Positions 9,674 to 38,074 of a stretch of DNA of 64,000 bases are shown here, in pieces (within the stretch, counting starts at the first letter, position 1; each line of letters starts with the position of its first letter). This stretch comes from Protoeuglena noctilucae. Its lineage: Eukaryota. The stretch lies in NCBI GenBank assembly GCA_958009085.1, contig OY253671.1:186001-250000 (forward strand). Reading direction: 5' to 3'. Under the pieces are notes generated by a model. It saw only the letters and a program-made list of their open reading frames with translations, had not been told where the DNA came from and made no database searches. Position numbers and translations under genes: made by a program.

Positions 9674-10624
9674 TTATCCACTTCACGGCACGCAGGCCCG
9701 GAGCCGACGGTGAGCCTGCAAACCGCCCCTCCCGCGGGCGCGTTGAGCAGAAAAGCTGCGCATCGAGGACTTCGCGCCGCGTGATGCCCGACCGGGCGGC
9801 CGAGGAGGGCCGGGGCCTCCCGCGCCGCAAGGTGCGTGGTTCCCCCGTGCGATGCGCGGGTCCCGCGGCTCTTCGCCGGCGATGCCTCACGCGCAGGACT
9901 GGGCTTAGATGCCACGTTAGGATCAGGCGGTGAGTGTCCCGGGGCGGGCCCAGATTCGGCGAGGCACCCGCCGGGGTGAACATCTCAAGAAAATCTGAGG
10001 CCTTCCGGGACGAGGCGCACCTTTAAATTTCCAATCTGATCAAAGAAGCGGGGAATGCGCCCAACCTGCCGCCTTCCAGCGCGGCCTTGGTCACGATTCG
10101 GCCGCAGCTGCTGTCGAGATGGATGGAAAATGCACAACGAGCAGAGGATCAAAGGAGTCACCGAGAACGCTCTGACAGGGAGTCGCTTATCCCGCTCAGG
10201 TGCTGACCACAAAGTGAATTTTATCTTGCTTTTCTGGCGGCCGTCGTCGTTCGCCCCTGGTCGCGCAAAGCATACAGAAAGCAGCTTTTCAAATGGCTTC
10301 GTTCGTCTCCCATGCCATCCCCGGATAGCGCCCCCTGGATGATCGCTTCATCAATTCAATTCCGGAACCCAGCTTTCGGAATTCCGCGCCCCCCGAGCTG
10401 CTTGGCGTTCCCCACGCCCCCCGCCTCCCCTGCGCCGCTGCGGGACGACAGCGCGGATCGGGTGACGACGCGATCCGGCGCGGCGGATTGGTATCCGCGG
10501 AGATTTCTTCGCATTGAAACGTCAGAGGGTTTTTACCCGGTCGCCCGGCCCTCAAAGCCCAGCCACCCCCCTCTGTGCCGGCAAGTATCTCAGAGCTCGT
10601 CTGTGAGAGAGGCTTTCAGACACG

Positions 10625-12430
10625 ATGGCGACCTCCTTCCTCGGCACCTCCATCCGCGCCCCCGTGGCCGCTGGCAAGGTGAGCTGCCGCGCTGCCCCCA
10701 CCCCCTCCCCCGCCCCCGCGCCCCCCTCCTGCGGCGCGATGCGCGCGTTTGTGGCAAGCGAGCGCGCTGCAAGGCCCCGAGCCCCTCCCCCCGCGCTCCC
10801 CGGGGCTCGGAATGGGCAGGCCTCTGGATTCTCGGCTGCCGGCCCACCCCGGGCCCCGCGCCCCCCACCCTCGCGCTTTCGAGAGCATTTCCGCGGCGGC
10901 GAGCGGGGCTTCCGCTTTCCGGAGCCCCTGGGGCGCGAGACTTGGCCATCCAGTGCCCCCCCGATTGCCTGGGATACGCCGGCCGTTATCGCCCCGGGGG
11001 CCACTCCCCGGGCAGCGGAGGCCCGCGCCCCGCTTTATCGGCATTGGAGACGCTGTCTTCGGGCGCTGAGCTCGCGGGGACCGCTCCCGCGCCCGCCCTC
11101 GGGTCGGGATCCCGGAAGGCAGGGTGCGCCCGCGGGCCCTCGACTCCGGCCCGGGCTGCGGACCGGCCCGCCAGCGGCTTTTTGACGAGCGTAGTTGTCG
11201 CGATCATGGGCGAGCGGGCCGATCGGACGGGTGTGGCGGCAGCGCACCCCGGGTCTGGGCTCCTGTGGTCCGGACCCCGCCCCCGCCTCACCCGACCTTT
11301 CCGGCCCCTCGGTTTCCTCTCCCCCCGTGCCGTGCGTGCCAGGACGCCGTTCTGACTGCGCAATCCCGTCCCCGTCGCTGCAGGGCACCCGCCAGGTGAC
11401 CCGCGCCGCCGTCGAGTTCTACGGCCCCAACCGCGCCAAGTGGCTCGGCCCCTTCTCCGAGGGCGATGTCCCCTCCTACCTGAAGGGTGAGATGCTCAGG
11501 AGGCGCACGCATCGCGTTTGAGGCTGGTGTTGCGGCACTTGGCAATTCCCGCGCCCCGCCCCCACCCCCAGGCGAGTTCCCCGGTGACTACGGCTGGGAC
11601 ACGGCCGGCCTGTCGGCTGACCCCCAGACGTTCGCCAAGTACCGCGAGATCGAGGTCATCCACGCCCGCTGGGCCATGCTCGGCGCCCTCGGCTGCGTCG
11701 TGCCCGAGCTGATAGCCAAGAACGGCGGGTCCTTCGGCGAGGCCGTGTGGTGGAAGGCCGGTGCCCAGATCTTCCAGGAGGGCGGCCTCAACTACCTCGG
11801 CAACGAGAACCTCGTGCACGCCCAGGTGAGCCCGCCACAGCCGCCGACGCAGGCACGCCAAGCCATGCTGCAAGTGTCATGGTCGGCCAGCCACACAGGC
11901 CAACAAGCCAGATGTTCACGCCGGTGATCTCTCCTCGCCTCGCAGTCCATCATCGCGACGGTGGCCGTCCAGGTCATCCTCATGGGCCAGGCTGAGGCGT
12001 TCCGCGCCGCTGGCGAGGCGCCCGGCCTTGAGGGCCTCGACTCCCTCTACCCCGGTGGCCCCTTCGACCCCCTGAACCTGGCTGACGACCCCGACACGTT
12101 CGCCGAGCTCAAGGTCAAGGAGATCAAGAACGGCCGCCTGGCCATGTTCTCCATGTTCGGCTTCTTCGTGCAGGCCATCGTGACGGGCAAGGGCCCCATC
12201 GAGAACCTGTCCGACCACCTCGCCAACCCCGGCGTCAACAACGGTGAGCGGCGCGCTGCGAGATCATGCCTGCATGCCCGGCGCAGGCGCGCTTACACCA
12301 TGCGGATGCGCCTGAGTGTTGCAGGCAGCCCATATGGCCAGCACTCGCGATGCAGAGGTCTGACCACGACCACCCTCTACCGCTCGCAGGCTTCGCCCTC
12401 GCGACGAAGTTCACGCCCGGTGGCTTCTGA
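10625..12430 (+). CDS. LHCBM: Major LHCII chlorophyll a/b-binding protein (LhcbM-a); exons 10625-10678, 11384-11486, 11572-11825, 11946-12243, 12390-12430
   Basis: [60 protein letters not shown]. All splice phases are consistent. Confidence 0.97.
10679..11383 (+). repeat. LhcbM-a first intron, homologous to LhcbM-b first intron (25390-26020, inverted)
   Basis: 10872-10951 vs the reverse complement of 25761-25840 gives 72/80 ungapped identity. Similarity is clear over ~330 nt from the donor site and patchy beyond. Confidence 0.92.
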
Positions 12431-12661
12431 AGACCCGGACGGTGGTCTAGGGTTGCATGCCTTTAGGCTCGCTTCGTGAAGATCCTCTCTCCACTCCCAT
12501 GATTGACGAGCCCAAAACCATACCGAACAAACCATACCGAACCCGCCCGCATCGCGGCGCTGTCACTGCCACGGTCAGTTTCTTCAAATGACGGCCAGGT
12601 GGCCTCAATAATCGCCCGAGGCGCGCAACGCAGCACAGCCCCTCGAGCAGGGGGGTGCGCT

Positions 12662-15178
12662 TCACGCGCGCGCTCCCGGCGAGCTCGCCGGGAAGCGCTC
12701 GGGGACGTGCTCCTCCTCTTCCTGCTCTTCGAGGGGTGGCGGGCGCTTCTCCTGTCGCACGGGCGGCGCGTCGTGCGCCTGCATGAAGTTGGCGAAGGAC
12801 TTGGACTTTTGGAAATGGTCCAGCCCCTGACGCAGGTCCACCCGGCGGATGCCTTTGACCGGGCCCTCGTCCTCCGCCTCCTCGCTGATGGTGCCCATGG
12901 CCGTGGCACCCACGCCCATCTTCTGCGCACCACAGGCACGAGCCTGACGTCGCGTGCTCTCACATCCTCTCAAGCGCCTCCTTGGAAATGACACCCTTGG
13001 ATCTCAGGAAAGGCGCACCCCACGCTTCTACAGACAGCTGGCCCCTCTCGCCCCTCTGCCAGAGCTGACAGGGCCGCCTCGAAGCCCGCCGCAGCGCCCC
13101 GTCAGACCACAACATCCTACACCAGCACAGCATCACTCGCCTTGGACTCCTCCAGGATCTGCTTGATCTTGACGTTGCGGTGCTTCATGGCGTTCAAGAA
13201 GGCCTGCGACCGGCGCCGCTCCAGCTCTTCCTCGAGGATGTGCTGCTCCTCGTCAATGCGGTCCAGAGCTTGCTGGAAGTGCTCCGGCAGGGGTTTGGTC
13301 ATCCACGGGTGCGTCTTGACCTGCGCAAGGGCGAGAAGAACGCCGATGTGTTGGTCCATGCACCTGTTGTCGGGCGCGTGATCGACGCCGGCACGGGGCT
13401 TGCTGGCGGGAGGGGCCACGGCGGTCATGGCGGCCACGGGGCAGTGGCATGCGATGCGCCAGGTGTGCACACTCGCCTGCTCGATGGTGTACCGCTCTCG
13501 CGCGTCCGTGACGAACATGTGGTCGAGCAAGTCCTTGCATTCGGGCGACAGCATCTCCACCAGACGCCGCAGACCCGGCTGGTTGACGCACTCGCGCCAG
13601 GACGTCGTGATCTGCTGCAGCAGCACCTCCCTGGGGCCAAAGGTGCAACAAGGAGAGGCAATGAGCGCAGGCAATCCCCAACAGTCCCTCTCCCACGCAT
13701 GGCGGCATGGCTACTTCACCCCTGCATCCCCGCACCCGGTGCACCCCACGCTCAGCCAAGCCCTCCCACAGTCACACCAAGCGCACCCCACACATCGACT
13801 CGCCTCTGCGCGGCGTTGCTGTCCGGGTCGGGGTTGTTGACGTGGTCATATGGGAAGGCCCCCATGAGCATGACGAAAAGGAGCACCCCGGACGACCACA
13901 CGTCCGCGGAAGTCCCCAGGTAGGCCTTCCCGGACATGCTGGTCGAGAGCACTTCGGGAGACATGTACACAGGCGTGCCGATGATGGTGTTGGTGTTGGC
14001 GTCCTCGGGCTTGCCCCAGGACTTGGCGAATCCGAAGTCGCAGATCTTGATGTAGGGCGGGTTCGAGACGTCGAGCAGGGTGTTGTCCAGCTTGAGGTCC
14101 CGGTGCATGACGTTGTGCTGCGAGGAGAGGCGATGCAGAGGCAATGCACATTTGGGCAGTGCGCGTCTGCTGGGCGGGTGACCCACAAAGCATCTCGGAG
14201 AAGACACTACGTGGACGGTGGCACGTATACAGGAGGGTGTCGGGTGACCGCACGACGGGCCCTTCCCAGCCACGCAACGTCCATGTCGCCACAAGCGAGC
14301 AATGGAGAGGGACAGGGCAAACATGGCCCCGCGCCATTCACCTTGTGGCAGTACTCGACTGCGGAGATAAACTGCTTGAAGAAGTAGCGCGCCTCGTCCT
14401 CAGAAATGTAAAGGCCCTTGGGCGTGCCCCCCGTGGTCTCGTTAGATGCAAATTTGGACGTGATGTAGGCGGTCAGGGAGCCCCCGGACACGTACTCCAT
14501 GGAGAGGGCCAGGTGCGTGGGCGTGAGGAGGACCTCGTAAAGGCTGACGATGTTCCGGTGCCCCTCACCCAGCTGCACGGCATGGGACGGTGCGGTCATG
14601 GGAGGCCATCGGCGCCACGCGTCCCGGCGCGGCCGGGAGGATCCTCGGACACAAAGAATGAAACTTTTTGCGCGCACACACCTGCGCCTGAATCTCGATC
14701 TCGCGCTGGATGAGCTTCACCAGCTGCGCCAGGATCGGGCGCGGAATGAACTTGACCGCGACCTCGTCCCCCGTCGCCTTCTCGCGCATCTGCGACGCCC
14801 AGACGCGAGAAGCGTTCATATATAACACGTACAGGCAGCGGCGGCAGGTAACGCGGCCCCGCGCGACGCACCAGCCACGTCTCGCCCGTGCCTCCCTTGC
14901 CCAGGAACTTGATGGGCTCGTAGAGCTCCTCCAGGCCGAACGTGGGCAGATCCGGCTTGCTCTTCTTCGGCTTCTGGTCTGCACGCCCCCCGCCGTAATG
15001 CGAGCCCGCCGCTGCCCCATCCTGCGAGCGCAGGGACGCCGACCTCTTGCGTCCCGCGGGAGGCCGCGGGGAGCGCCCGCCGTGCTCTGAGCCGCCACCC
15101 GCCCACCTCTTTCTGGTTCCCATACTTGTACTTGTTCCCCGCGGGCTCCTTCGACGGCTTGCTCTCGAAGCATCCCAT
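12662..15178 (-). CDS. SnRK2-like Ser/Thr kinase with N-terminal MGC acylation motif, ~10 exons
   Basis: MGCFESK start; LGKGGTG, VAVKFIPR, HRNIVSLYEVLLTPTHLALSMEY, HRDLKLDNTLLD, KICDFGFAK, GTPVYMSPE; acidic C-terminal tail. Confidence 0.9.
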
Positions 15179-16375
15179 GGGCGACCCTGCGACCAGGGCG
15201 CGCGCCTCGGCTCGTGGGCGCGGTGCGGCCAACCTGGGCCCACGCATGCGCCATCGACTGCAAACACTCGAGGATCGCCAAAGCAGGGCGCGCAGGTGCC
15301 GCGCGGAGACGCCACGGCAGGGCGGTCGTGACGTGCGCTCGCCTGCACGCCCTCCCTCGGCCAAGGCCGACGGTTCTCCCCGTGTGCTGCCCCCTCTCCT
15401 AGTCCCTGCCGTATCGAGACCCAGCAGCGGGGCTCCGGAGGCCCGGGGGTGGCGGGCAAACAAGCGTGAGAGCCGGGTTGTTAAAGTAGACCTGCGCCGT
15501 TCTACGTCCTTGTTTGATGCGCAGATGTCGCAAATATGCGGGCCTCGTCCCGCTGCGTCGTCAGGGGAGGGAGGGCGCTCGACGTTCACCGGCGCCAGTA
15601 CACGGGTGCCGCTCTTGCTGAAAGCCGGCCCCCAGCGTGCCCATTGCACCTCAGGAGCGAAGAAATGTTAAAAGAAAAGTCGTCGGCATCACCATGATTG
15701 GCCTGCAGCGGTGGTTCGCGCCCCAGAGCCCGGCCCGCCCGGCGTCTGTCCCAGCGCACGTTATAGCAGTCCGCATCTCTTTCCAGCTCGTCTCTATCGT
15801 CACCGCACAGGTGGCCGTCCGACCAGGGCGACGGATTCGCATCTTGGACGTGTAAGGTGCGTCCTCGCCCGTGCCGCAGCCGGGTCTGCGCCGCGGCGGC
15901 AGTATCTTTGCGCCGCCGGTTCGCCGTGAGGTACTTGTGCCTTGAACTCCACCGAGGTCGACATAGCTGCTGTGACGATGCGGTCTTCCTGTCGGGGGCG
16001 TGGCCCTCATGGGCGCCCCTGAGTGCCACGCGGCTCTTCGAATACGCGACAAATATGATGCTCCCGCAGGGCTTCAGCGACGACAAATAGCATGGAGGTT
16101 CCATGACAGCCGGCCGCGTCGCGCGAAAATCTCCCGGTGAGTTACGGACGGGCGGCGAGTGTCCAGGACAGTTTAACCAAGCATGGGCTTGTGCGCCCTT
16201 GCCAAGGCGAGCCCACGTGCCAAGGGCATCGTCTCAAGGACATCTTTCTGATGGTCCCCCCTCTTTCGGCCAATGCAGGCACGAGTTTGCAAGATATGTG
16301 GAGGAATCGATAGAAGCTAGTTAGATCCCTTTCACGCAGCAAGAGACCGAGCTAGAAGCGGACTGACGGATACAT

Positions 16376-17831
16376 CTACTGCCCGTATTTGAAGGTGCAC
16401 CCCATCTTGTATGCAAGCTCGGGGACGACATGGTCGGCAAGGATGCATCCCATGCCTCCCCTGCAGCTAGCCCGAAAGGCACTGGCCGCCGTGCAGCTAT
16501 CCACGCGGATGACCCCTGCGCGCACATCGAGGTAGACGATGAAGGGGGCGTGGAGCAGCGCCCCGCAGCTGGGCGCTCATCAGCAAGGCGCAGTGCTGCT
16601 GCCCACCGGGTAGTCTCTGCAACACAAGCGCCGTCTCGTGTTCCCGGAACGACGCCACCTCGCGGCCGTGCAGGCGCTGGAAACTCTGACGAGGGCGGTA
16701 CAACCCTCCTGGCCCTCGGCAGCCCCCCAGGGCAGGCAGCCCCACGCAAGGCTGCGGATGGTACGAGGTGCTGGGCGACTCGGTGACTCGTAAAACGCGG
16801 AAAGGTCAGCGCTTGACACCCACGCTCTGCCAGCAAGCCAGGCCCCCTAAAGAGGGCATCGCACTTCACCCCACGCCAGTGCCCGTGTTCACCTTCCCTG
16901 GCTCCGCGTCCTGCCCAACAATCACGCAAAGCATCATCTCTTCTCTCGTGCCCGGGCGCTCCCAAAGCTCGCGGACCACCTCATCCGCCCAGAAAAGGGC
17001 ATCGGCTGGGCCGCCAGCCGCGCCGCGCCCCACGTGGGCCACCAGCAGGTCCCCCCGCTCGGAGCCCGCGAAGAGACCCAGCTCGCCCGCGGAATTCAGG
17101 AAGCGCCGGCCGCCGGAGAAGCCCAGCGCGGCCGCGGCGCGCGCGGCGAACTGGCCGGGGTCCGGCACGGCACGGCCCGACGGCGCGGCGCCGTCCCTGG
17201 GCGCCCCGGCCATGCACTCGTCCGCAGCCTCGAAGCCAGCCCGGCGGCCCGCGTCGCGCACGCGCGCATCCGTGCTGCAGAGCGCAGCGCGCAGTGACCG
17301 GAAAGCGCTGAAGCGCTTGCCCACGGGCTCCCACGGAGGGGCATCGTGCGCGGAGACGCCGGCCCCGTCGCGGGCGAACTCATCGCAGTACGTCAGGACC
17401 TGGGCCACCAACGATAGGTCGCCGACGCCCGCCTCCCGCACCGCCAGCAGGCCGCTGGTGCCTAGCCGCGCCGCAGCGTCTGCAAACCCGCGCGAAGGGT
17501 CGGGTTCTAGCGCTTGCAAACAATGTCAAGCCTTCATGATCCATCCAGATCGCATTTCCACGCGGAGTTCGTCACCCAGGTGCGGCGTCGGCGTCGCATC
17601 CAGAGAATTTGGCAGGACGCGCGCCCAGCCCTCCCCCGGCTCGAGGGCCTCGTTGATGTCCCCATCGACGGCCGCGATGGCTCCCTCTACGATCAAGATG
17701 AGACACTTAGGAGGCGGCTGCTGTTGCGCCGCCGCGAGGCTGTAGCTCGGGCTGGCGTCATGGCCGGTCCGGCACTCGAGGCAGTCGCAACGCGTCGAGG
17801 GACCGTACTCGCGCTTCCTCGGCCTAGGCAT
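16376..17831 (-). CDS. Conserved green-lineage protein of unknown function (resembles the Arabidopsis At5g11810-type family)
   Basis: Exons give CLILIVEG, GTSGLLAVR, KRFSAFRSLRAAL, LGFSGG, DLLVAHVG, RPRQSF. A last exon missing from the ORF track reads GVIRVD...ILADHVVPELAYKMGCTFKYGQ*, similar to the remembered family C-terminus EVAFKLWKAPKYGA. Confidence 0.7.
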
Positions 17832-18000
17832 ACGATGGTTGTGGCGAGGAACCAATATCGGCCAGAAGAAGCAGCAAATTGCATCCAAGGCACTCGTGCA
17901 ACGCCCATAAACGGATGGCGTGCCGCTGACACACTTTTCTCCTGCCTTTCAATAGCCAGCGGGGGCACGACGCCTTGCGACACGCGCGCAAATCCTCTCC

Positions 18001-20238
18001 TCACATCATGCGGACCTCGTACTCCCCCGCCGTGGTGATGTAGCGCACCCAGGGCAGCGCCTGGTAACCCGACCGCTCAATGACCTTGAGGTAGCGGACC
18101 TGCATCCCCGACACCGTGAAGTACGGGATCTCGTAGTTGACCTGGATGGGCCGCTTGGACTCGGCCACCTCCTCGCCCGACACGGTCGGCAGGCCGAACT
18201 TGACCCGCAGCAGCGCCTCGCGGCCCCCCGGCAGCGACTTGATCTTCCACATCAGCGCGCCCTGCTCCGGGTGGTACTCTGCGGGGCGAGCCGCGATAGC
18301 GGTTCCTTCCAGGACGCCCACGCGCGCATCCCGGACCCTTGCATGCCCCGCTCGCCGCACTGCCCCGTTGCGGACACCCCTGCATACGCACCCGAGTTGC
18401 CCGTGGACGCCTTGGACTCCGGGGTGGAGCAGTCGATGGGGAGGGGCACCGTGAGCGTGAGGTTGTGGGCCGTCGAGCGGGCCTTGAAGGCTGTCCGGGC
18501 GCGGATCATGTACTCGGTGCGCGAGCGGCCATGGCGCTCAATCTCGCACTCCACCTGGATCAGCGGCTTCACGCGGCCTGCGCGCCAAGAGTCACCGGGC
18601 TACGTCGACCCCGTCGGGACAAACCAGCTGGCCGCAGACCCTGCCCCACTGCAACCCTCTCGCGCGCCCTCACCGGTGATGCGGTACGTCATCAGGTCGA
18701 ACTGCCCGTCGGGCGGGATGAAGGAGATGGTGCGGTCCTTTTCAAAGTGGGCCAGGCGCACGCACTGGTGGAACTTGATGTCCTCCAACTCCACCGCCTT
18801 TTGCGCCGCGGCGCCCCGGCCTTGCGAGTCCAGGAGCACCTGCGGGGGCGAGGAGGGTGGCAGGCGTCGACGGGCGCACCCGGCACGGCGGCAGCCGGCC
18901 CGGTCACACCAGCGGGGACCGTGCATTCGGTCGCTCGCACGTGGCACGCTGTCTCGGCCAGTGCAGCCCCCGCCACCATTTGCCGGGCCCGGTCCCACTC
19001 GCCTTGTCGTTCAGGCCAAGCTTGCACTCGGGCATCCCTGACAGGAACGCCTTCATCTTGAGCGCCCCCAGCACCTCGCCCCGGATGAGCTGGCCCTGGT
19101 GGCTCATCAGCATGTTGACCTTCTCCACGACGTCCAAGAACACCTCGTTCTTCTTGTACCTGCGGGCGGGCGGCGCCGGGAGCCGTGAGGGCGACGCCCT
19201 TGCCCGCATGGTCAGCCCAGGCTCTCTGTGGCCGCTCGGTGCGAGACACACGGCACTTGATGCCATCAAGCGAGTGTCTCACTTGATGCCCTCGCTCCGC
19301 CAGCTGACGGCGTTCGTCACTGCCATGGGTGGCTTGACCATGCCCTCCAGCTTGTGCGCGTCCGTCTTGATGTACTCCTGCAGGATGGCCGCCTCCGTGA
19401 ACTGAGGGTACCCAAAGTCCATCACCTCGTCCAGCAGCTCGTAGACTGCGGGGCAGGGGGAGCAGAACCCTCTTCTCCTCCATGCCAGGGTTTGCTGGAG
19501 ACTTGGCGAACCTCCGCTGCCTCTCCAGATGCATCCTCTGGACACCCAGCACACGCGCAGGAAGCATTTGCTGCTCTAACAGCTCAGCGCTCACTGATGA
19601 CGAAGTTGTCGCGCAGGGATTCCTCCTCCAGCTCTCCGAAGTAGTTCTTAAACACGTCCACGAGCTGCGAGCGAGACCCAGGGCGCAGGCATGGCATGGA
19701 TGCGCATGAGTCGCGGTGCCCCCTGGGCCACAGCCTGGTGACAGGCGGACAGGGTGCGTACACCGCGCCAGCCGGGCCTACCAACTCCCTGCTGCTCAGG
19801 CAACGGTACCGACCGCACCGCACCCCACGGCGCGCACCTTGTGGAGGAAGGGCTGGAGAGACACGACGTTGGCGTTGGAGCTGGCTGACGCCACCACATA
19901 CAGGTTCGAGTACTGGATGTACACGAACGAGAACCCCTTGAAGAGCACCACGGGCGTCAGCTGGCCCTGCTCCTCGAGCTCGCCTGGGCACCAGGGGCGA
20001 GGCAGGGGTGCGTGAGATGGGGGCACGAGGGGTGCACACGCGAGGTGCGTAACCATGATCAACTGCGCACCAGAGCGGGTAAACACGTGCGCGGCCGCAA
20101 TCAGGGCATCGTGCCGGCTGCCTCACCCAGGTGGTGGACGAAGCGCTCGACGATGTGCGAGGGCACGTCCCCACGGTAGTCGCGGGACAGGATGACGCGC
20201 CCTGCCACATCGAGGAAGTAGATGGCCGAGGCGGGCAT
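18001..20238 (-). CDS. AP1M: AP-1 adaptor complex mu subunit
   Basis: [10 protein letters not shown]...[117 protein letters not shown]. Confidence 0.97.
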
Positions 20239-20347
20239 CGCTACGGAACTGCAGGAGACACGACGCGGGTGGCGGTGTGCAGGCGGGCGGCGAATGGCCT
20301 GGCGCTGGGCCGCAAGCGAGAGGGCCGACCCGGACGGCCAAGCACCT

Positions 20348-20871
20348 TCAAGCCTGGGCCGTGGGCCGCTTGGGGAGCTGGTCGACGTGCTTGACGATGT
20401 TCGAGAGCACGTTGGTGACGCCGCCCGGGGAGCCGTTGAGCGCAGCGAGCTGCGGGGGCCGGGTGCAGGAGTTGTTGCCGTTTGAGCCCCGCCGGCCAGG
20501 CTGGCGAGCCTGGCGGCCAGCCGGACAATCAAGGGCTAGCGGGGGAAAATGCGCGACATTTCCCGTCCGCAGGGGCGGCAACAGACGGCCGCGCGTCCCT
20601 CTCTGCCCCGCCCGCGCGGGGCGGGAGTTCACGGGCCATCCGCGGCATGCGCGCCCCGGCTGGCGCCCTGCCACCACTGGCAGCTCCGGAAACGCGTCCG
20701 TGCGGGCCTCCTGGCTGCCGGATGGGAAGCACGGGCGTCGCGGGCGCCCACCTGGAGCAGGGGCACCAGGAGGTGCTCGGGAACGTCCAGGCCGGCCAGG
20801 ATGCAGAGTTCGTGGAGGTCAGCCCTCAAGTTCTCGGATAATACAGTGAGGTTACGTTGCTGCGTGGCCAT
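20348..20871 (-). CDS. 73-aa MOZART-family microprotein (MZT2/GCP8-like); exons 20871-20752 and 20449-20348
   Basis: Spliced product MATQQRNLTVLSENLRADLHELCILAGLDVPEHLLVPLLQLAALNGSPGGVTNVLSNIVKHVDQLPKRPTAQA. The pattern VLS..L.EL...AG...LL.L..LN.SP..V...L fits the MZT2 three-helix core. Phase-0 GT-AG intron. Confidence 0.65.
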
Positions 20872-21230
20872 CATAGCCGGGGATCAGTGGAGCGGAGCTC
20901 GATCAGTCCGCGGAAGGGCCATCCGGGGACGAGAGCTGGATCTCCGCGGTTCCCTGGGCGATTCGCAAGCAAGAATACCCATCGGCACGCGAGGCTCTGG
21001 GGGAGGAAGCGCGGGGCCCTGCCAGTCAGCGAAACTTCAGCGTCCACGCCGAAAGTCCGTTGCATGTGGACCACAGCCGCGCTGTGCATTTCTCCTGTCA
21101 ACAGTTTGATTGGGAAGCTTGCAACTTGGCTACTTGCTGCAGGGAGGGGTCCACACACGACGCGCAACCCGCCATCAGCGTCCACCGTCGCGCTCGCTAG
21201 CGGCGTCCAGGCAGCTGGTGCTGAGAGGAG

Positions 21231-22747
21231 ATGGGGGATTTCGGCGGGATGGCTGGCGTGAGCCAGTTCGCTGGCGGCTTCATGCCGACCACGCAGGCCG
21301 CGGGCGGACCCTCTCCCGGCCAGCAGAGGTGATGTCCGATGCGCTCGCGTCCACGCGAAAGTTCTTTGCCTTCTTAGGGTTTCGTTGGCATGCTTCGCGG
21401 ATGCCGTCAGGCTCTGTGGACCCGGCAACGCTGCCTTGACAAGGGCACGCGAATTCGGATGGCTCGGAGCGCGCTCGATGGGGCGCAGGCGCCATATGCG
21501 CTCCCTTCCTCACCAGATGTTTCTCGGCCGCTTGGCGCGAGGCGCTTGCGGATGGGCTCCGCCCCCTGTGCCCTCGCCGGCCCGCCGCGCTGTGCATGCT
21601 GTGTGCGTCGCATTTCCCGTCCTCTGCCCCCGCGCGCGCAGGTCCGAGACGAGCAAGCAGTCCTTGCGCCCGCTGACGGTCAAGCAGCTCGCGGATGCGA
21701 ACGCGGCCTCGGGCGGGGCCGAGCTGCTGCTCGACGGTGAGCCTGTCGAGAACTTCACTCTGGTGGGGAAGATCAGGCGAGGGCAGGCCTGGCTGCCGCG
21801 GCACGCGTCAGCTTCGCTGCTTAGCTGCGCCGTGCTCTCGTTCGTCGCCGAACTCGGTCGCGCCTCGCGCAGGAGCACGCACCCGCTGCCCACGTACCTG
21901 GAAGTCAAGCTGGACGACGGCACGGGGGTGGCGGACGTGCGCCTGTGGCTCGACGAGGACGCGACGGCGTCTGCGGCGCAGGTCGCGGAGCTGCAGCCCG
22001 GCCGATACGTCCGCGTGTACGGCGCGTTCCGCAGCGTCGCAGACACCCCGAGCATTCAGGTCCGGGCCAGCGCGTGCCGTGTGGCGGTCTGCGCGCGGGA
22101 CGCGTGCCTCCGTGACACTCCGCACCTGCGCTGAACGCGCAGGGGTTCAAGGTCCGCCCGGTGACGGACTTCAACGAGGTGGTGTACCACCCACTGGACG
22201 TCATCTTCGCGCACCAGATGCTGCAGAAGAAGGCCCAAGGTGACGAGGCTGCCGGCTTGGGGACATTGTGAACACGGGGCGCACCCGGCGGCGGCAATGA
22301 CCCGGCCCCGCTGTCCCACTGTGCAGGCGTTCCCACGTCCATGACCGTGGGCCAGGGCGCGCCCGCGGGCAACTTCGGCGCGCCCGCGGCGGCTGGGTGG
22401 GGCGCACCGGCCGTCCACGCGGTGCAGACCCACGGGGGGAGCGGCATGAGCCCCGTGGCGGAGGCGTGCATGCGCGTTTTCAATGAGGACGGTGCGTGCG
22501 AGAGAGAGCGGGTGAAGCTCCCCGTTGTGCGCGTGCCTTCTCTTGGTCCCCGCCTCACGCTTATCGGCCAGCCTCGCCCGCAGTTGCTGCTCGGTCCGAC
22601 CGGGGCCTCCATGTGCACGAGCTCATGCGCAAGCTCAGCAACCGCTTCAGCGAGGGGCAGGTGAACGAGGCCCTCGACTTCCTGCTCCAGGACGCGCAGA
22701 TCTACTCGACAATCGACGACAGCCACTTCAAGTCCACGCTGTTCTGA
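21231..22747 (+). CDS. RPA2: Replication protein A 32 kDa subunit
   Basis: FAGGFMP, LRPLTVKQL, LDDGTG, YVRVYG, VRPVTDFNEVVYH; winged-helix C-terminus IYSTIDDSHFKST. Confidence 0.95.
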
Positions 22748-22830
22748 GCGGCGCACACGGGTGCCGCGTCTACTGCGGCCGGCAACCGTGGCCGTCGCGG
22801 GGCATGGCTAGCACGAGGGGAACGGGGCGA

Positions 22831-23821
22831 TTAGTGGGGGATAGCGTTGACGTTGACGGCGAGGATGGCGAAGCCCAGCGCGTGGCCCAGGGCGCCCCAC
22901 GCCATGACGTCCACCAGGTTGAAGCCAGCAGGGTCGTTGGTGGTCTGGAGGAAGGAGGCCTCGGCCGCGAGCCTGTCACCCGCCTCGAGGTGCGTCATGC
23001 CGTTCTGCTTCGGCAGACCCGCGGACGCGACCTGGGAGGGCGGTGGCAGGGAGGCAGGTTTCCGCACCGCGGGAGGGGAAAGCGCTGTGGCAGAGGGGCT
23101 GCAAGGCATGGGAGCCGAGCAGCCAGCGGCGGCTCTGGCCGGCCGAAACAGCATGCGCCGGGGCGCGGACTCACGCGGTCGCGCTGGTAGGGGAGGAAGA
23201 CGAAGCGGCCCAGGCCCAGCATCACAGCGTTGGCCCCCGAGATGACGAGCTGCGAGTCGGTGAAGAGCTCGGCCCGGGTCACCTGCGCTCAGAGCCACGC
23301 GTCCGCTGCGTCAGCGAGGGCACCGGGAAGGCGCAGGCGGCGCGAGGGGAGCGGGGCAAGGGGATGCAGGGCAGGATCCGGGCCCCGGGCGCCGCTGAGG
23401 GAGCCGGGGGGGCCCTCTCGCAGCCCGGTTTGTGCGATAGATCAAATAAGACTCATCGCGTCGCAACTCCCGTCGTCCGGTAACGAGCACGAGGAGAACG
23501 CCGCGGGCGGGAGGTTGCCTCGTATCTCAGCCCTCGCCCGCCGGCATGCCGCGATTCGGCGCCGCGATCCCACCGCGACGAGCAGATTAGCTACCGAAAA
23601 GCGCGTGGTCCCCGGCGCAAGACACCCAGGCTCGCCCGGGACCTTTTCTCCAGTGCGCTGGACCGGGGCGCCGCTCCTGGGCGACAGCGGCCCCGGCACA
23701 GCTGTCGCCGCCAGCTCTAGTGCAGATTCACCTGGCGCGAGCCGCGCTGGCCAACGGCCTGCACGGACTTGGCCACCCGCTGCTGGAGCGGGGTCCGCTG
23801 AACGAGCATGGAGGCCTGCAT
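22831..23821 (-). CDS. PSAG: Photosystem I subunit G; exons 23821-23732, 23282-23175, 23031-22831
   Basis: Transit peptide [15 protein letters not shown]...; [51 protein letters not shown]. Confidence 0.95.
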
Positions 23822-24312
23822 GGTCGCTACGGCTTCCAAATATACGATTGGGAGTGGCGGACTGATTTTTTTTTCTTTTGCCAATGAGGATTCAAAGAGA
23901 TGACTGCTAGGGCACCCTCAAAACCCTACCCGCGAGAAAACCCGAAGAAAGAGACTGATGGGTCGCGGGGGAAAACGGCGGAATTGACCCCGCCATCCGT
24001 CATAACGTGCACACCCAGTCTGACGGGGATCAGGGCGGGCCTTCGTCTTGCTTTCTTCGATGTAGCGTGCGCTGTGCACACTGCTTGCCCGCCTGCGCCC
24101 CTCAGCAGGTTGTCAAGCTGTTGAGGGTGGCGTGACGCGCCCAGTGCACAGCCTCTCACTGAGCATTGTCAAGATCAGGTCCTGATCTCTTCTCGCCACT
24201 GCGGCAAATGACTGGTTGTCTGTCAAGGGACTGGGATAGTCGAACTTAAACGAAATCTGTCACCGGGCTCGCCAATGCCTAGGCGCAGCAGGGCCAGCCA
24301 GCTTCAGCGAGT

Positions 24313-26080
24313 TTAGGCGGAGGGGGTGAAGCGGGTCGCGTAGGCCCACGCTGCGGGGGCGGAGAGGAGGAAGACGTCAGCAAGGTGCGGCCTTGGATCG
24401 ACCGCCGGGCTGACGCCACCCCCGCGAGCCTGTGCGGGTGCAAGAGCGCAGTCCCATCACGGTGCAGCGCGCCTCACCGTTGTTCGCGCCGGGGTCCGCG
24501 AGGTGCTCGTTGAGGTTCTCGATGGGGCCCTTGCCCGTCACGATGGCCTGCACGAAGAAGCCGAACATGGAGAACATGGCCAGGCGGCCGTTCTTGATCT
24601 CCTTCGTCTTGAGCTGGGCGAACGTGTCGGGGTCGTCAGCCAGGTTCAGGGGGTCGAAGGGGCCACCGGGGTAGAGGGAGTCGAGGCCCTCGATGCCGGG
24701 GGCAGAGCCGTTGGCGCGGAACGCCTCAGCCTGGCCCATGAGGATGACCTGGACGGCCACCGTCGCGACGATGGACTGCGGATACGGAGAGCGATGATCG
24801 TGTTGCGGCTGCTGGCGGATCAGCCAGGCCCAGGCTCAGCCCTGGCCGCCATCTGCGCTGGCCGCCCCGGGCATGCCGTCACCTGGGCGTGCACGATGTT
24901 CTCGTTGCCGAGGTAGTTGAGGCCGCCCTCCTGGAAGATCTGGGCACCGGCGCGGAACCACACGGGCTCGCCGAAGGACACACCGTTGCCGGCGAGGATC
25001 TCGGGGGTCACGCAGCCGAGGGCGCCGAGCATGGCCCAGCGGGCGTGGATGACCTCCAGCTGGCGGTTGCGGGCGAAGGTCTCGGGGTCAGCCGACAGGC
25101 CGGCCGTGTCCCAGCCGTAGTCACCGGGGAACTCGCCTGCGGAGACCCGACCACAGCGCCCGTCAGCACTTCCTGCCGTGTGCACCACGCATCACCGCTG
25201 CGACGAAACTGCCGTCTTGCCAAGCAGCCTCTCACCCGTCAGGTACGCCGGGGGCTCGCCCGAGAAGGGGCCCAGGAAGAGGCCGCGGTTGGGGCCGTAG
25301 CCGGTCCCGTCCGAGCCGACGACCTTGGAGGCCGGCTTCTTGGCGGCCGCGCCCTTGCCCTTGGCGACGGTGCGGCGCATGGTGGTGGCCTGCGGGCGCC
25401 GGGAGCCGAGGCGGGGTGAGGGAGGGGCGCTTGACAAGGTGCCTGGCTGGCCTGCTCCGCGGCCGTGTCCCGGGCCCGATCGCCCGCGCGACACCGAAGC
25501 GCGGCACAAACGGTAGCGACGAAAGCGAGGGGCACCACGCGAAAGCCGCAGCGGCGCTGATGAGGCCGCGCGGGCTCGCCCCCCCATGTCGGGCTTCCGA
25601 GATCCCGGTCGATCGGGACCCGGCGCGGGCGCATCCCGGGCGCCACGGACGCGACAGGCGCGGCCGGATGCGGGGATGCGGCGGGGGAAGCCGTCCCCGC
25701 CGGGAAACGGCCCTCGGGGCGATAACGGCCGGCAGATCCCATGGCAATCAGGGCCCCGATGGATGGCCGTGTCTCGCGCACCAGCGGCTCCGGAAAGCGG
25801 GTGCCCCGCTCGCGGCCGCGGAAATGCTTTCGAAAGCGCGGGGGTGAGGGGCGCCGGGCCCGGGGTGGGCGGGCAGCCGAGATTGCCTGCTCATCCCGAG
25901 CCCGGGCTCGCAGAGCGCAGGGGGGGGCACTCGGGGCCTTGCAACGCGCTCGCGAGGCGCAAACGCGCACATCGCATCGCGGGAGGGGGGGCGGGTGGGC
26001 GGGGGGCGTGCACAGCTCACCTGCTTGGAGCCGGCCTTGGCCACCGTGAGCTGGCGCGAGACGGTCTGAGCGAACGACAT
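24313..26080 (-). CDS. LHCBM: Major LHCII protein (LhcbM-b, mature N-terminus RRTV); exons 26080-26021, 25389-25236, 25136-24883, 24775-24478, 24350-24313
   Basis: MRRTVAK..., [54 protein letters not shown]. Confidence 0.97.
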
Positions 26081-26315
26081 GGTGACGGGAGTTGAACGAC
26101 TGGAAGGGATCCCAACCTTTCTCGCCCATCTGCCGCAGGCACGGGCGCAGATGAGCCCCGGGGCCCGGATCCAGGTGGGTTACCCTGCCAGCCATTCGCC
26201 AGCGAGCTGTGGACCGGTCAACAGTGCCCTGATGCCTTGGATGGTGAGCCCAGATGAACCATACAGCATCTCTGCACGCGGACGCGGCTCCGGCCCCCGG
26301 CCGGACCCGGGGAGG

Positions 26316-27205
26316 ATGGAGGAGGAGGCGTCCGACGCGTCCCTGGACTTTGCGCCTCCCGCGGCCGAGGGGATCGACGTCCACCATCACACGTGGGGTC
26401 TCCCCGATATTGGTGCGCCGATGATGCGTCGGGGGGGTGCCTGGGGTCCCGAGCGCCGCGCGCGAGCTCCGTCAAGCCCTGGCTCGCAGGGCACCTGGCC
26501 GTGTGGTCCGTCTCCAGCGCCAAGCAGGGCTGTGGGGTCGAGGTCCTCCGCGACAATCGGAAAGACACCTTCTGGCAGTCCGACGGCCACGTGCCCCACG
26601 TCATCACGGCCTCCTTCCAGCGGCGCGTGACGGTCTCCGCCGTGCAGCTCTACCTCGACTTCCAGCTCGACGAGAGCTACACGCCGACCAAGATGGCCAT
26701 CAAGGCGAGACTCGTGGGTGTCGTGCTCGCCACCCCACCGCATCCCGGCTGTTCAACGGCCAGTAAGACCTCATGTGCAGGTCAGCCCCAACGGCACACA
26801 AGGGGACATGCAGCTCTTGAGCTCCCTGAACGTGGAGGAGCCGCGGGGGTGGATCACCGTGTGGCTGCCGGACGAGGAGACCAAGGAGGGCATGCAGCTG
26901 TGGAAGCTGGCAGTCGGTGCGCGCAGCTGTGTCGCTGTTGTGTGCTCGCGTTCATGTTCATGCGCAGCACGCACGTGGAGCACATTGATGCGCTCGCGAC
27001 TTGGCAACTCCCCATGCGCTGCACGCGGCATCATGGGCCTTGCCTCGCCTGGCCCGCAGAGATCCAGCAAAACCACCAGAATGGCCGGGACTCCCACGTC
27101 AGGCTCATCTCCTTGCTCGGCGCCGCGGGCCGGCCCGATGGCAAGTCGGGGGGATTCGAGGGGGCCATGCTGTCGCTCGGTAACAACGCTTCAATGATTC
27201 GATAG
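26316..27205 (+). CDS. APC10: Anaphase-promoting complex subunit 10 (DOC1)
   Basis: IGHLAVWSVSSAKQGCGVEVLRD, TFWQSDG, LDESYTP, EPRGWI, NHQNGRDSHVR. Confidence 0.95.
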
Positions 27206-36403: not shown

Positions 36404-36496
36404 TCAGAAGATGCCGGCGGGGATGGAGTAGCCGTTCGTGGCGAAGTTCACGTCGCCGGGCGCAGCGAGGTGCGCGCCGAGGCAGGCGAGGGGGCC
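36404..36496 (-). CDS. Alternative (distal) terminal exon of the Lhca gene, encoding [30 protein letters not shown]
   Basis: GCAG acceptor at 36500-36497, phase 0, 31 open codons. The first 11 aa are identical to the proximal last exon but with synonymous differences. Confidence 0.85.
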   Translation of the reverse strand, partial: GPLACLGAHLAAPGDVNFATNGYSIPAGIF

Positions 36497-36675: not shown

Positions 36676-38074
36676 CTACTGGCTGAGGGAGTTGAGCACC
36701 GTGGTGTTGCCGGGGTCGGCGAGGTGCGCACCCAGGCAGGCCAGGGGGCCCTGCGGCGCAACAAGGCAAGAGGTCACCTTCGCGGGGAACGACGCGTCGC
36801 CTCGCGACGGCGGTGGAGTACCCTGCCCCGGCCCGATAGCTCACCTTCCCCGTGGCGTGGTACTGGGCGAAGAAGCCCACCACGGCCACCATGGCCAGGC
36901 GGCCGTTCTTGATCTCCTTGACCTTGAGCACCTCGAGGTCACCGGGGATCACGGGGGCGAAGATGCCGCCGGGGTAGCCGGGCTCGTGGTCGGGGAGGCT
37001 GTTGTTGCTGAAGATGGGGTCCTGGTTGACCGAGTTGGGCTTGCGCCAGTCCTGCCACCGGCGGATCTCCACGTAGTGCATCAGCGCGAACTGGATGCCC
37101 AGGAGGGCCGGCACGGACATGGGCAGGTCCACCTTGCCACCGGCCTCGAAGAAGTTGACCGAGGGGTTGAAGATCTCCTGCGGGGAGGGCGCAAGGGACG
37201 CGCTCGATCGCCGATATCCCCGAGACGCGAGAAGAGGAGCGCGGGGAGGCCGGCGCGCGGCCTGGACGCGGCCGGGGCGCGAGATCGGGGGCTGGATCAG
37301 GCCGGGAGCGCCCCGAGGCCCGCTGCTCCGGCCCGCCGTCACCGCGAGCGCGCCATTCACGCGCCGAGGCACCGCTCGGGAGGGCCCTGGACGACAATCT
37401 CGGCTGGCAATCGCGCCCAGCAGACTCGCCTCCTACGAATCCCGCCAGAGCCCCCGGGAGGGCCCGGCGGGGGCCGCGGAGACTCCCCGAATGGCTCACC
37501 TGGCCCAGGATGCCCGCAGCGCCGGCCATGGCCCAGCGGCAGTGCTGGAGCTCGGCCTCCTTGAACCACGACAGGAGGGTGGCGTCGGAACCGAGGCCCA
37601 GGGGGTCGAAGCCGTAGTCACCTGCGCGCGAGAGGCGAGACGCGCGCGGAGATGTCGCACGGGAGGCGCGGCCAGGCCCGGGGAGCCCCGGCGCGGGGTC
37701 CCGCCCTGTTGCCGACACAAATCGGCCGGGCAGCTCTCCGCCCGCCTCCCCCGCCGCGCACGCGGGCGCAGGCTGCGAACGCCATCACAAACAACGCGGC
37801 GGAATGCGGGAGGGCCGACGATAGAGGCGCGCGGGGCCGAATCGGCCGAGATAACAGCCTCGACCCGGCCCCTGATTCGCGCCCGGGGAGCCCCGGGGCG
37901 AGGGCACGGGGGGTCGCGATGGCGCGGACACTCACCGGGGAGCGTGCCCGTGAGGTGGGCCGGCGCCGTGGAGCCCGGGAGCCACAGGGGACGGCTGGAC
38001 ATGGTCGCCTTGGCGCCGTTGGCCTTGACGGCCATACGGGCGCCCGTGGAGAAAGCAGAGCGAGACGCGATCAT
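36676..38074 (-). CDS. LHCA6: PSI antenna protein, Lhca6-type; exons 38074-37936, 37621-37500, 37177-36845, 36750-36676 (proximal last exon)
   Basis: [62 protein letters not shown]. The FAP.IPGDL loop is typical of Chlamydomonas-type Lhca6. Confidence 0.88.

What the first reader, a model, noticed from the sequence alone, without database searches (positions are those of the whole stretch)
10679..26020. Conserved long first intron shared by two LhcbM paralogs whose neighbouring exons have diverged
Seen: intron 1 of LhcbM-a (10679-11383, 705 nt) and of LhcbM-b (25390-26020, 631 nt) are several times longer than typical introns here. They align from the donor for ~330 nt, with a core of 72/80 identity (10872-10951 vs 25840-25761). 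The transit-peptide exons differ ([11 protein letters not shown] vs [11 protein letters not shown]), and introns 2-4 are not obviously alignable. Two small stems keep pairing across substitutions: GCTT-TCGA-[G/A]AGC and AGCGGG-gcw-[T/C]CCGCT. Known: first introns such as Chlamydomonas RBCS2 intron 1 enhance expression. Inference: a functional cis-module or structured intronic RNA co-regulating LHCII genes; gene conversion or a shared insertion are the alternatives.
Basis: partly seen in the sequence, partly recalled or inferred. Interest (0 to 1): 0.78.

Follow-up and report, generated by a model that had tools for sequence, protein, structure and literature searches.

The report
Shared intron block, two LHCII genes
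Two neighbouring light-harvesting antenna genes of a marine green alga share about 320 bases at the start of their first intron, while the rest of their non-coding DNA no longer aligns; this may be a control element or just a patch kept alike by gene conversion, and the data here cannot decide.

Summary
Intron 1 of LHCII gene a (10679-11383) and gene b (26020-25390) align from the donor for about 330 nt: 277 of 319 aligned bases are identical, BLASTN E 1e-83, and the 72/80 core is verified. Exon 1, introns 2-4, the rest of intron 1 and both flanks align no better than shuffles. RNA contigs confirm all four introns of gene a.

It is not a hidden exon, a tRNA or an Rfam family, and it has no second copy in the window. 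As a whole it folds no better than shuffles. A larger 52-58 nt hairpin (10801-10858 / 25907-25851) ranks 2nd to 39th of 12,788 windows for stability, and the a/b differences spare its pairing (P 0.002-0.038, chosen post hoc).

Against a selected element: differences are evenly spread, A/T sites are less conserved than G/C, and the block (13% mismatch) is no more alike than silent exon sites (7%). Those silent sites look homogenised themselves (0.93 identity against a 0.67 baseline).

I give about 0.42 to a promoter-proximal intronic control element, with its likeness topped up by gene conversion, and 0.36 to a neutral conversion island. No other genome of this alga or a relative could be reached, so the dispersed-copy and ortholog tests remain undone.

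The parts
10625..12432 (+). LHCII gene a (5 exons, 4 introns)
   Evidence: Gene model and translation. PF00504 on exons 3 and 4. All four introns are seen as GT..AG joints in RNA contigs.
10679..11383 (+). Intron 1 of gene a, 705 nt
   Evidence: Joint 10676/11382 (cut +2), skips 705, GT..AG, in runs X7 and X13. Model.
10679..11011 (+). Conserved 5' block of intron 1, copy a (333 nt). It begins with a C-rich, indel-rich tract (GCCCCC x5 at 10694-10723).
   Evidence: tandem repeat.
10801..10858 (+). GC-rich hairpin or palindrome, copy a (58 nt)
   Evidence: MFE -41.1, z -2.2 sense and -2.3 antisense. Ranks 12 and 20 of 12,788 60-nt windows. Boundaries.
10978..10996 (+). Longest perfectly shared run (19 nt), holding TTATC (GATAA on the other strand), copy a
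   Evidence: Motif counts.
24313..26080 (-). LHCII gene b (5 exons, 4 introns)
   Evidence: Gene model and translation. PF00504 on exons 3 and 4.
25390..26020 (-). Intron 1 of gene b, 631 nt
   Evidence: GT..AG and reading-frame continuity. No RNA joint for it was among those shown.
25700..26020 (-). Conserved 5' block of intron 1, copy b (321 nt)
25851..25907 (-). GC-rich hairpin or palindrome, copy b (57 nt)
   Evidence: z -3.9 sense and -5.3 antisense. Ranks 39 and 2 of 12,788 windows. Boundaries.
25715..25733 (-). The same 19-nt perfect run, copy b

Best explanation
The block is ancestral intron-1 sequence that both LHCII paralogs have kept.

Most likely it is a promoter-proximal intronic control element. 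Its core would be the 52-58 nt GC-rich hairpin or palindrome about 125 nt behind the donor, with flanking sequence that includes a GATA-type motif inside the longest perfect run. It would act on the DNA or on the nascent pre-mRNA to give these very highly expressed antenna genes a common high or light-tuned output, in the manner of a first-intron enhancer or intron-mediated enhancement.

Its even ~87% identity is probably not held site by site. Occasional ectopic gene conversion between the two genes, which lie about 12 kb apart and converge (14.7 kb between the two blocks), would reset the whole island, and selection on the core would keep the island alike enough for conversion to continue.

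Shown:
- the block, its borders and its uniqueness within the window;
- splicing of intron 1 in gene a;
- absence of coding, tRNA and Rfam signals;
- the stable hairpin, and differences that spare it.

Inferred: that the hairpin or motif is selected, that it affects expression, and that conversion acts on the block.
For: 1. It is the only shared non-coding DNA. Block z = 45, while introns 2-4, exon 1 and both flanks equal shuffles; the 3' rest of intron 1 shows no significant local match (P 0.24), though the global test gave z 4.6. The duplication is therefore old at neutral sites.

2. Intron 1 interrupts the transit peptide at matching places, K|GTRQVTRA against [11 protein letters not shown], both in phase 0 (read by eye). 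Homology runs from the donor GTGAGCTG onward. This points to descent rather than insertion.

3. An island flanked on both sides by unalignable DNA has no conserved exon next to it to carry conversion into it. The short introns 2-4 lie between 89-93% identical exons (225/254 and 276/298) and were still lost. Persistence of the island is most easily explained by some constraint (inference).

4. The hairpin is stable in both copies: z -2.2 to -5.3, and ranks 2, 12, 20 and 39 of 12,788 windows. The 6-8 differences include a G-C to C-G flip at the stem base, a 6-nt indel in the loop and a bulge change. Placing the same number of changes at random keeps the stability in only 0.2-1.6% of 3000 trials, or 0.2-3.8% with strict stem-loop borders. 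In the sliding scan of 16 windows across the block, none gave a low P in both directions.

5. GATAA/TTATC occurs only 16 times in 64 kb. Four of these lie in first introns of LHC genes (0.61 expected, Poisson P 0.0035) and two more lie upstream of gene a. All six read TTATC on the gene's sense strand. The motif was chosen after seeing the data.

6. The position fits. The block begins 54 nt (a) and 60 nt (b) behind the ATG, in genes whose RNA contigs are among the deepest laid (contig depth is only a rough guide).
Against: 1. Differences are spread as evenly as chance. Dispersion equals the null at four window sizes (P 0.19-0.63), and the longest identical run (19) is shorter than the null mean of 26. 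There are no footprint-like islands.

2. A/T positions are less conserved (73-80%) than G/C positions (89-91%). This is what neutral decay in a GC-rich genome gives.

3. The block's mismatch rate is 42/319 = 13% (d about 0.15). That is not lower than at 4-fold sites of exons 3-4, 6/90 = 7% (d about 0.07; Fisher P 0.098). It is significantly higher than at third positions of same-amino-acid codons, 6/160 (P 0.001).

4. Those silent sites look homogenised themselves. Identity is 84/90 against 35/52 and 33/49 to the LHCA gene of the same genome (P 9e-5 and 9e-6), and against 0.32-0.65 to the 15 foreign LHCII sequences printed, 0.46-0.65 among those with GC3 of at least 0.95. So conversion may be active in this pair and could explain the block without any function.

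5. If held by selection alone, roughly 78% of 320 sites would have to be constrained (my estimate). That is a high share for an enhancer.

6. The block as a whole has no fold signal. Tests without choice of region are marginal.

7. The hairpin and the motif were both picked after looking. Only two sequences exist, and no ortholog was available.

8. In Chlamydomonas, enhancing introns share no conserved sequence domain (PMC7419008, passages read).
Confidence: 0.42

Rival explanations
1. Neutral conversion island. The block has no function. It is a stretch of ancestral intron that happened to stay alike enough for ectopic gene conversion between the two nearby paralogs to keep resetting it, and it is now drifting apart at about 13%.
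For: - Divergence inside the block is even.
- The 3' border is sharp: local P 0.24 beyond 11011/25700.
- A/T sites decay faster than G/C sites.
- Block divergence is in the same range as silent-site divergence of exons 3-4 (P 0.098).
- Silent sites lie far above the within-genome baseline, 0.93 against 0.67, while 24 of 184 codons differ in amino acid. That pattern is expected from conversion.
- The two genes lie about 12 kb apart, which favours intrachromosomal conversion (general knowledge).
Against: - Conversion needs homology that is already there, so it does not explain why this island survived. The short introns 2-4 lie between convertible exons, and the adjoining half of intron 1 is next to the block; none of them survived.
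- The changes in the hairpin spare its pairing more than random placement does: P 0.002-0.038, chosen post hoc.
- High silent-site identity might instead reflect site-specific codon selection in very highly expressed genes (GC3 0.95).
Confidence: 0.36
2. Intron-hosted hairpin RNA. The hairpin, read on the sense or the antisense strand, is the functional unit. It would be a small-RNA precursor or a protein-binding pre-mRNA hairpin released or read during splicing, and the rest of the block is a passenger.
For: - Hairpin stability and rank.
- Differences that spare the structure, including one compensatory flip.
- The antisense reading of copy b is an almost perfect stem with G-U pairs, z -5.3, rank 2 of 12,788.
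Against: - No Rfam family matches. The only overlapping hit is mir-H1 at 22.6 bits against a gathering score of 97, E 9.
- A stem of about 24 bp is short for a plant-type precursor (recalled).
- No target-like match to either arm exists elsewhere in the window.
- No small-RNA data were available, and contigs cannot show RNA ends or strand.
- The hairpin is no more conserved in sequence than its flanks: 8/59 differences against 42/319.
Confidence: 0.1
3. Mobile element. The block is a transposon or introner-like element that landed in, or created, intron 1 of both genes.
For: - The block has a sharp 3' border and holds an internal inverted repeat.
- Introners are common in aquatic unicellular eukaryotes (PMC9860276, passages read).
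- Only 64 kb of this genome could be searched.
Against: - There is no third copy in the window.
- No terminal inverted repeats were found at the block's ends; target-site duplications were not looked for.
- The likeness covers only the 5' 47-51% of the intron rather than its whole length.
- The intron sits at a matching position and phase in both paralogs.
- The translated open frame across the block finds only itself among 1.84 billion representative proteins, and copy b's frame finds nothing. This is weak evidence, since it depends on spurious gene calls being made.
- Exact 19- and 26-mers found no true match in the metagenome, prokaryote-genome or viral collections. Those collections seem not to hold this alga.
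Confidence: 0.05
4. Hidden coding exon or small ORF inside the 'intron'.
For: All six frames are open across copy a: 7 ORFs of at least 60 aa overlap the block. This is expected at 75% G+C.
Against: - Mismatches show no 3-base periodicity (chi-square P 0.93, 0.37, 0.14).
- In the two longer gap-free segments no frame has more synonymous than non-synonymous codon changes; only one frame of the 41-nt segment does (3 against 2).
- Indels of 1, 4, 6 and more bases break every frame.
- RNA contigs splice the whole 705 nt out.
Confidence: 0.01

Closest known systems
Expression-enhancing first introns of green algae (Chlamydomonas RBCS2 intron 1, LHCBM1 intron 2; intron-mediated enhancement, PMC7419008, passages read)
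   Same: A spliced intron near the 5' end of a very highly expressed photosynthesis gene. In that paper the effect needs the intron inside the transcribed region and is stronger close to the promoter.
   Different: That paper found no distinct motif and no conserved sequence domain among its enhancing introns, and the responsible sequence was dispersed. Here a 320-nt block is 87% alike between two genes. No expression test exists for this block.
Ectopic gene-conversion tracts between neighbouring paralogs (for example yeast ribosomal-protein duplicates, PMC2988524, abstract seen in the listing; earlier scan note e1-563719)
   Same: A patch with an even, younger-looking divergence and sharp borders inside otherwise old duplicates. 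Silent exon sites of the same pair also look homogenised.
   Different: The patch is purely intronic and is not joined to any conserved exon. Introns that lie between the homogenised exons are not converted.
Introners, intron-generating transposons (PMC9860276, passages read; the listing also names PMC4540971 and PMC3879977, not read)
   Same: Two introns with similar sequence in an aquatic unicellular eukaryote.
   Different: Introner families need at least four similar introns, and pairs whose host proteins are similar are filtered out. Here only two introns are alike, they lie in paralogs at a matching site, and the likeness covers only half the intron.
GATA / I-box light-responsive elements of plant CAB and RBCS promoters (recalled, from no call)
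   Same: A GATAA core lies inside the longest perfectly shared run and recurs at the 5' ends of three LHC genes in the window.
   Different: It lies in introns rather than upstream promoters. The motif was chosen post hoc. Nothing is known about such factors in this alga.

Membership tests
LHCII-type chlorophyll a/b-binding protein genes (hosts of the block) | Chlorophyll a/b-binding domain (Pfam PF00504) above the curated cut-off | tested here: met
   Exons 3 and 4 of both genes score 78-82 bits against a cut-off of 22.3. The nearest named relatives are LHCII type I proteins at 76% or less. 'LhcbM' is a Chlamydomonas name, and orthology to it was not tested.
Intron-mediated enhancement / first-intron enhancer | A spliced intron inside the transcribed region, close to the promoter | tested here: met
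   The intron starts 54 nt (a) and 60 nt (b) behind the ATG. Splicing of a is shown in 2 of the 4 runs laid.
Intron-mediated enhancement / first-intron enhancer | Presence of the intron raises expression of a reporter | not testable with these tools
   This needs transformation of the alga or a surrogate host.
Gene-conversion tract | A patch of even, lower divergence with sharp borders inside older duplicates | tested here: met
Gene-conversion tract | Paralogs within a species closer to each other than to their orthologs in a sister species | not testable with these tools
   No genome of this alga or a relative is held, and the collection scans found no true match.
Introner / transposon-derived intron | At least four similar introns in unrelated genes | tested here: inconclusive
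   The 64-kb window holds only these two, and they lie in paralogs. The rest of the genome was not searchable.
Introner / transposon-derived intron | Likeness from one end of the intron to the other | tested here: not met
   Only 333 of 705 nt and 321 of 631 nt are alike. The remainder gives local P 0.24.
Introner / transposon-derived intron | Terminal inverted repeats | tested here: not met
   None of the 18 and 24 short inverted pairs lies at the block's ends. Many introner families lack these marks.
Introner / transposon-derived intron | Target-site duplications | not tested
   No search for short flanking duplications at the block's ends was made.
Structured non-coding RNA (Rfam family, snoRNA, microRNA precursor) | Match to a curated covariance model | tested here: not met
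   Nine matches in 10000-27000, all far below their gathering scores. The only one in the block is mir-H1 at 22.6 bits against 97. There are no tRNA genes.
Structured non-coding RNA (Rfam family, snoRNA, microRNA precursor) | Folding energy beyond shuffles | tested here: inconclusive
   Whole block z -0.07 and -0.71. The hairpin alone gives z -2.2 to -5.3.
Structured non-coding RNA (Rfam family, snoRNA, microRNA precursor) | Covariation that supports the pairs | tested here: inconclusive
   Only two sequences exist. Of 7 double changes, 5 lie in the poorly aligned C-tract. One clean flip lies in the hairpin. Placement tests give P 0.002-0.038 for the hairpin and 0.03-0.29 for the whole block.

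The most novel reading that the evidence does not exclude
The hairpin-centred block is a regulatory RNA or DNA module private to the major antenna genes of this little-known marine green lineage. It would be read on the nascent first intron (or processed into small RNA) so that splicing or output of several LHCII genes is set together when light changes. Conversion between the genes would keep all copies of the module in step.
Probability: 0.12. Interest if true: 0.65.

Novelty: new member of a known kind. Interest (0 to 1): 0.36.

Why it matters
If the block is a control element, it would be a rare case in a green alga of a long, sequence-defined intronic module tied to antenna-gene expression. 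The one algal study read here found no conserved sequence among enhancing introns. It would also be a ready-made part (promoter plus first intron) for expressing transgenes in an alga whose nearest named relative in the one protein search made shares only 43% protein identity.

If it is only a conversion island, the pair is still a clear example of concerted evolution. It acts patchwise on exons and on one intron piece while skipping the short introns between the exons. In both cases the decisive data are the alga's full genome and that of a sister species.

Tried and rejected
Searches for further copies:
- Whole-genome search: no genome is held.
- Metagenome scan with the 19-nt perfect run: 21 loci, and none resembles either gene region by BLASTN, so all are chance hits.
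- The 26-nt core pattern: 0 hits in prokaryote genome contigs and 0 in viral contigs.
- LHCII exon 4 as a protein query: 59 loci in prokaryote assemblies. BLASTN of both gene regions against them aligned only exon parts; no block match appeared among the 40 best hits or in the L075 listing. Most are short contigs under 1.5 kb, and I take them for plant or algal contaminants. The same query found none in viral contigs.
- Spurious open frames across the block used as protein queries. Copy a finds only its own locus among 1.84 billion representatives. Its 90% cluster has 2 members that differ by one residue in the C-tract. Copy b finds nothing among proteins of 225-718 aa.
- Earlier notes of this scan: nothing by place or by sequence.

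Tests of what the block is:
- Rfam, tRNA and tandem-repeat scans gave nothing relevant.
- Coding test: negative.
- Whole-block consensus fold against column shuffles: z -1.44 sense and -2.88 antisense. Mononucleotide shuffling inflates such values.
- Likeness of the block to the first introns of PsaG/K and LHCA: no BLASTN hit better than E 0.003.

RNA depth. An unspliced contig over intron 1 of gene b has depth 777, against 29 for gene a. I rejected this as evidence of intron retention. The b contig also runs through the highly expressed exon 2, and a contig carries only one depth figure. Parts without contig cover, and the joints of gene b that were not shown, are not evidence in either direction.

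Literature. Papers holding all of 'concerted evolution', 'gene conversion', 'light-harvesting' and 'introns': 0. I searched for no paper on this particular alga.


Full report
SETTING

The window has 67% G+C and is eukaryotic. No whole genome is held for it. Near-identical DNA and RNA occur in marine metagenomes and metatranscriptomes and in runs of one coded organism.

The nearest named relative of a neighbouring M50 protease is a pedinophyte green alga at only 43% identity. An unnamed relative at 83% exists in metagenome data.

The finding lies in a 28-kb group of photosynthesis genes:
- LHCII gene a (10625-12432, + strand);
- a PsaG/K-type photosystem I subunit gene (starting at about 23830, - strand);
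- LHCII gene b (26080-24313, - strand);
- an LHCA-type gene (38074-36676, - strand).

Yes. I built both gene models from the sequence. Each has five exons, the four introns are all GT..AG at the same places, and the translations are typical LHCII proteins. Exons 3 and 4 of both genes match PF00504.

This is seen in 2 of the 4 runs laid, from two studies. They also show introns 2-4 of gene a. Joints of gene b were not among the 15 shown (27 were not shown), so intron 1 of b (631 nt) rests on the model.

The two first introns align from the donor:
- BLASTN gives E 1.4e-83 over 312 columns.
- A gapped alignment has 277 of 319 aligned bases identical.

Nothing else in the 64-kb window resembles the block.

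Exon 1, introns 2-4 and 500-600 nt of 5' flank and 400 nt of 3' flank score no better than shuffled sequence. The 3' half of intron 1 scored z 4.6 in the global test against mononucleotide shuffles, but its best local match is not significant against dinucleotide shuffles (P 0.24).

The introns are long for this region. The median of the 14 intron-sized joints shown is 151 nt. The first introns of PsaG/K (450 nt) and LHCA (314 nt) are long as well.

WHAT IT IS NOT

- Not coding. Mismatches show no 3-base periodicity, and in the two longer gap-free segments no frame favours synonymous change (only one frame of a 41-nt segment does, 3 against 2). Indels of 1, 4, 6 and more bases break all frames, and the RNA splices the stretch out.
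- Not a known RNA family and not a tRNA.
- Probably not a mobile element. There is no third copy in the window. No terminal inverted repeats were found at the block's ends; target-site duplications were not looked for. The likeness covers only the 5' 47-51% of the intron. The intron interrupts the transit peptide at matching points, K|GTRQVTRA and [11 protein letters not shown], both in phase 0 (by eye). This speaks for one ancestral intron rather than two insertions. The operational definition of introners asks for at least four similar introns and filters out pairs whose host proteins are similar (PMC9860276, passages read).
- Not a block-wide structured RNA. The block folds no better than dinucleotide shuffles (z -0.07 and -0.71). 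The rest of the intron does not either.

WHAT STANDS OUT INSIDE IT

One hairpin of 52-58 nt lies about 125 nt behind the donor (10801-10858 in a, 25907-25851 in b).
- I scanned all 12,788 overlapping 60-nt windows of the 64 kb on both strands, with energies corrected for G+C. Copy b ranks 2nd (antisense reading) and 39th (sense reading). Copy a ranks 12th and 20th.
- The tool's own shuffles give z -2.2 to -5.3.
- The two copies differ at 6-8 positions and by a 6-nt indel. The indel and one change lie in the loop, one change is in a bulge, one lengthens the stem, and two form a G-C to C-G flip at the stem base.
- I placed the same number and kind of changes at random. The hairpin kept the observed stability in 0.2-1.6% of 3000 trials per direction and strand, and in 0.2-3.8% with strict stem-loop borders.
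- In the sliding scan of 16 windows across the block, none gave a low P in both directions.
- The same test on the whole block, where nothing was chosen beforehand, is only marginal (P 0.29, 0.12, 0.053, 0.033).

Because I picked the hairpin after seeing the consensus fold, I count this as suggestive rather than established.

A second lead, also post hoc, is a motif. The longest perfectly shared run (19 nt, 10978-10996 / 25715-25733) contains TTATC, which is GATAA on the other strand. This 5-mer occurs only 16 times in the window. Four copies lie in first introns of the three LHC genes (0.61 expected, P 0.0035), although copies a and b are not independent. Two more lie about 400 nt upstream of gene a. 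All six have the same orientation relative to their gene.

SELECTION OR CONVERSION?

Four results speak against a classical, footprint-like regulatory element.
1. The differences are spread as evenly as chance, and the longest identical run is shorter than the null mean.
2. A/T positions are less conserved than G/C positions.
3. The block is not more alike than silent sites in the exons. Mismatch is 13% in the block, 7% at 4-fold sites (P 0.098) and 4% at third positions of unchanged codons (P 0.001).
4. The silent sites are not a neutral yardstick. Their identity (84/90) is far above what codon bias alone gives in this genome, which is 35/52 and 33/49 against the LHCA gene (P 9e-5 and 9e-6). 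It is also above the 0.32-0.65 seen against the 15 foreign LHCII sequences printed, 0.46-0.65 among those with GC3 of at least 0.95. At the same time 24 of 184 codons differ in amino acid.

The pair therefore shows two age classes. Silent exon sites and the intron block look young. All the other non-coding DNA is saturated. That is the signature of patchwise ectopic gene conversion between paralogs about 12 kb apart, although very strong site-specific codon selection is not excluded.

Conversion explains the level and evenness of the likeness. It does not explain why this island exists, because conversion needs homology that is already there. The island touches no conserved exon. The short introns that lie between the homogenised exons were lost, and so was the adjoining half of intron 1. 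The simplest account is a mixed one: some part of the block, with the hairpin as the best candidate, is under selection. That keeps the island alike enough for conversion, and conversion then evens out the whole stretch.

I give this 0.42. I give a purely neutral island 0.36, a hairpin-RNA reading 0.10, a mobile element 0.05, and the remainder to other causes.

COMPARISON WITH WHAT IS KNOWN

The nearest functional parallel is the enhancing first introns of Chlamydomonas. There the effect needs the intron inside the transcript and near the promoter. Deletion series of RBCS2 intron 1 and LHCBM1 intron 2 found no discrete motif, and the strongest introns share no conserved domain (PMC7419008, passages read). 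A long sequence-defined block would therefore be a different kind of intronic element, if it is functional at all.

The nearest evolutionary parallel is gene-conversion tracts between duplicates. One example is PMC2988524, of which I saw only the abstract in the listing.

WHAT COULD NOT BE DONE

No genome of this alga or of a relative could be reached.
- The single metagenome scan returned 21 chance matches.
- Scans of prokaryote and viral collections returned nothing or only short, mostly sub-1.5-kb contigs that aligned in the exons alone, which I take for contaminants.
- Using the open frames that run through the GC-rich intron as protein queries found only the locus itself, plus one variant with a single change in the C-tract.

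The genome-wide copy count, the ortholog comparison and small-RNA evidence are therefore all still open. They would settle the question.

VERDICT

The functional reading is plausible but not shown. The specific structural claim (two small stems) does not hold, while a larger hairpin deserves a test.

Noticed in passing
window 36404-36496 and 36676-36750 (- strand): The LHCA-type gene has two versions of its last exon. Each lies behind an AG, and the first 50 nt of the two are 86% alike. They encode [24 protein letters not shown] and [30 protein letters not shown]. They could be alternative 3' exons giving two C-termini, or a decaying duplicate.
   Followed up: partly
window 10625-38074: Four photosynthesis genes lie within 28 kb: two LHCII genes, a PsaG/K-type PSI subunit gene directly downstream of gene b on the same strand, and an LHCA-type gene. 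All have a long first intron: 705, 631, 450 and 314 nt.
   Followed up: partly
window 11574-12242 and 24479-25134 (exons 3-4 of both LHCII genes): Silent sites look much younger than replacement sites. Of 90 4-fold sites 84 are identical (within-genome baseline 0.67), yet 24 of 184 codons differ in amino acid. The introns between these exons are unalignable. This suggests exon-limited concerted evolution with paralog-specific residues kept.
   Followed up: partly
window 10187, 10221, 10986, 11035, 25721, 37850: Six of the window's 16 GATAA/TTATC sites lie at the 5' ends of the three LHC genes, all in the same orientation relative to the gene. The motif was chosen after seeing the data.
   Followed up: partly
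L075 4001-4223; L081 (G001:C17:364928-365071): A 375-kb contig of an assembly labelled as a marine alphaproteobacterium holds a 115-aa open frame with a chlorophyll a/b-binding domain (PF00504, 55.6 bits). It is 88% identical to gene a over 50 residues and is the only such match in that 6-Mb genome. It could be a transferred fragment, a chimeric contig or contamination.
   Followed up: partly
window 10678-10690 and 11236-11248: The donor region of intron 1 of gene a is complementary in 12 of 13 bases to a site about 135 nt before the acceptor (pair I4; see also I1). This could bring the ends of the long intron together. No equally good pair was seen in gene b.
   Followed up: no
window 10694-10726: The C-rich tract just behind the donor (GCCCCC x5) is where the two copies differ most by indels. 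It also holds the only variant seen among public copies of this locus: one residue differs between the two members of the spurious-ORF cluster.
   Followed up: no
window 54821-54880: This is the most stable 60-nt hairpin of the window after G+C correction, a 19-bp perfect stem that folds on both strands. Its context was not examined.
   Followed up: no
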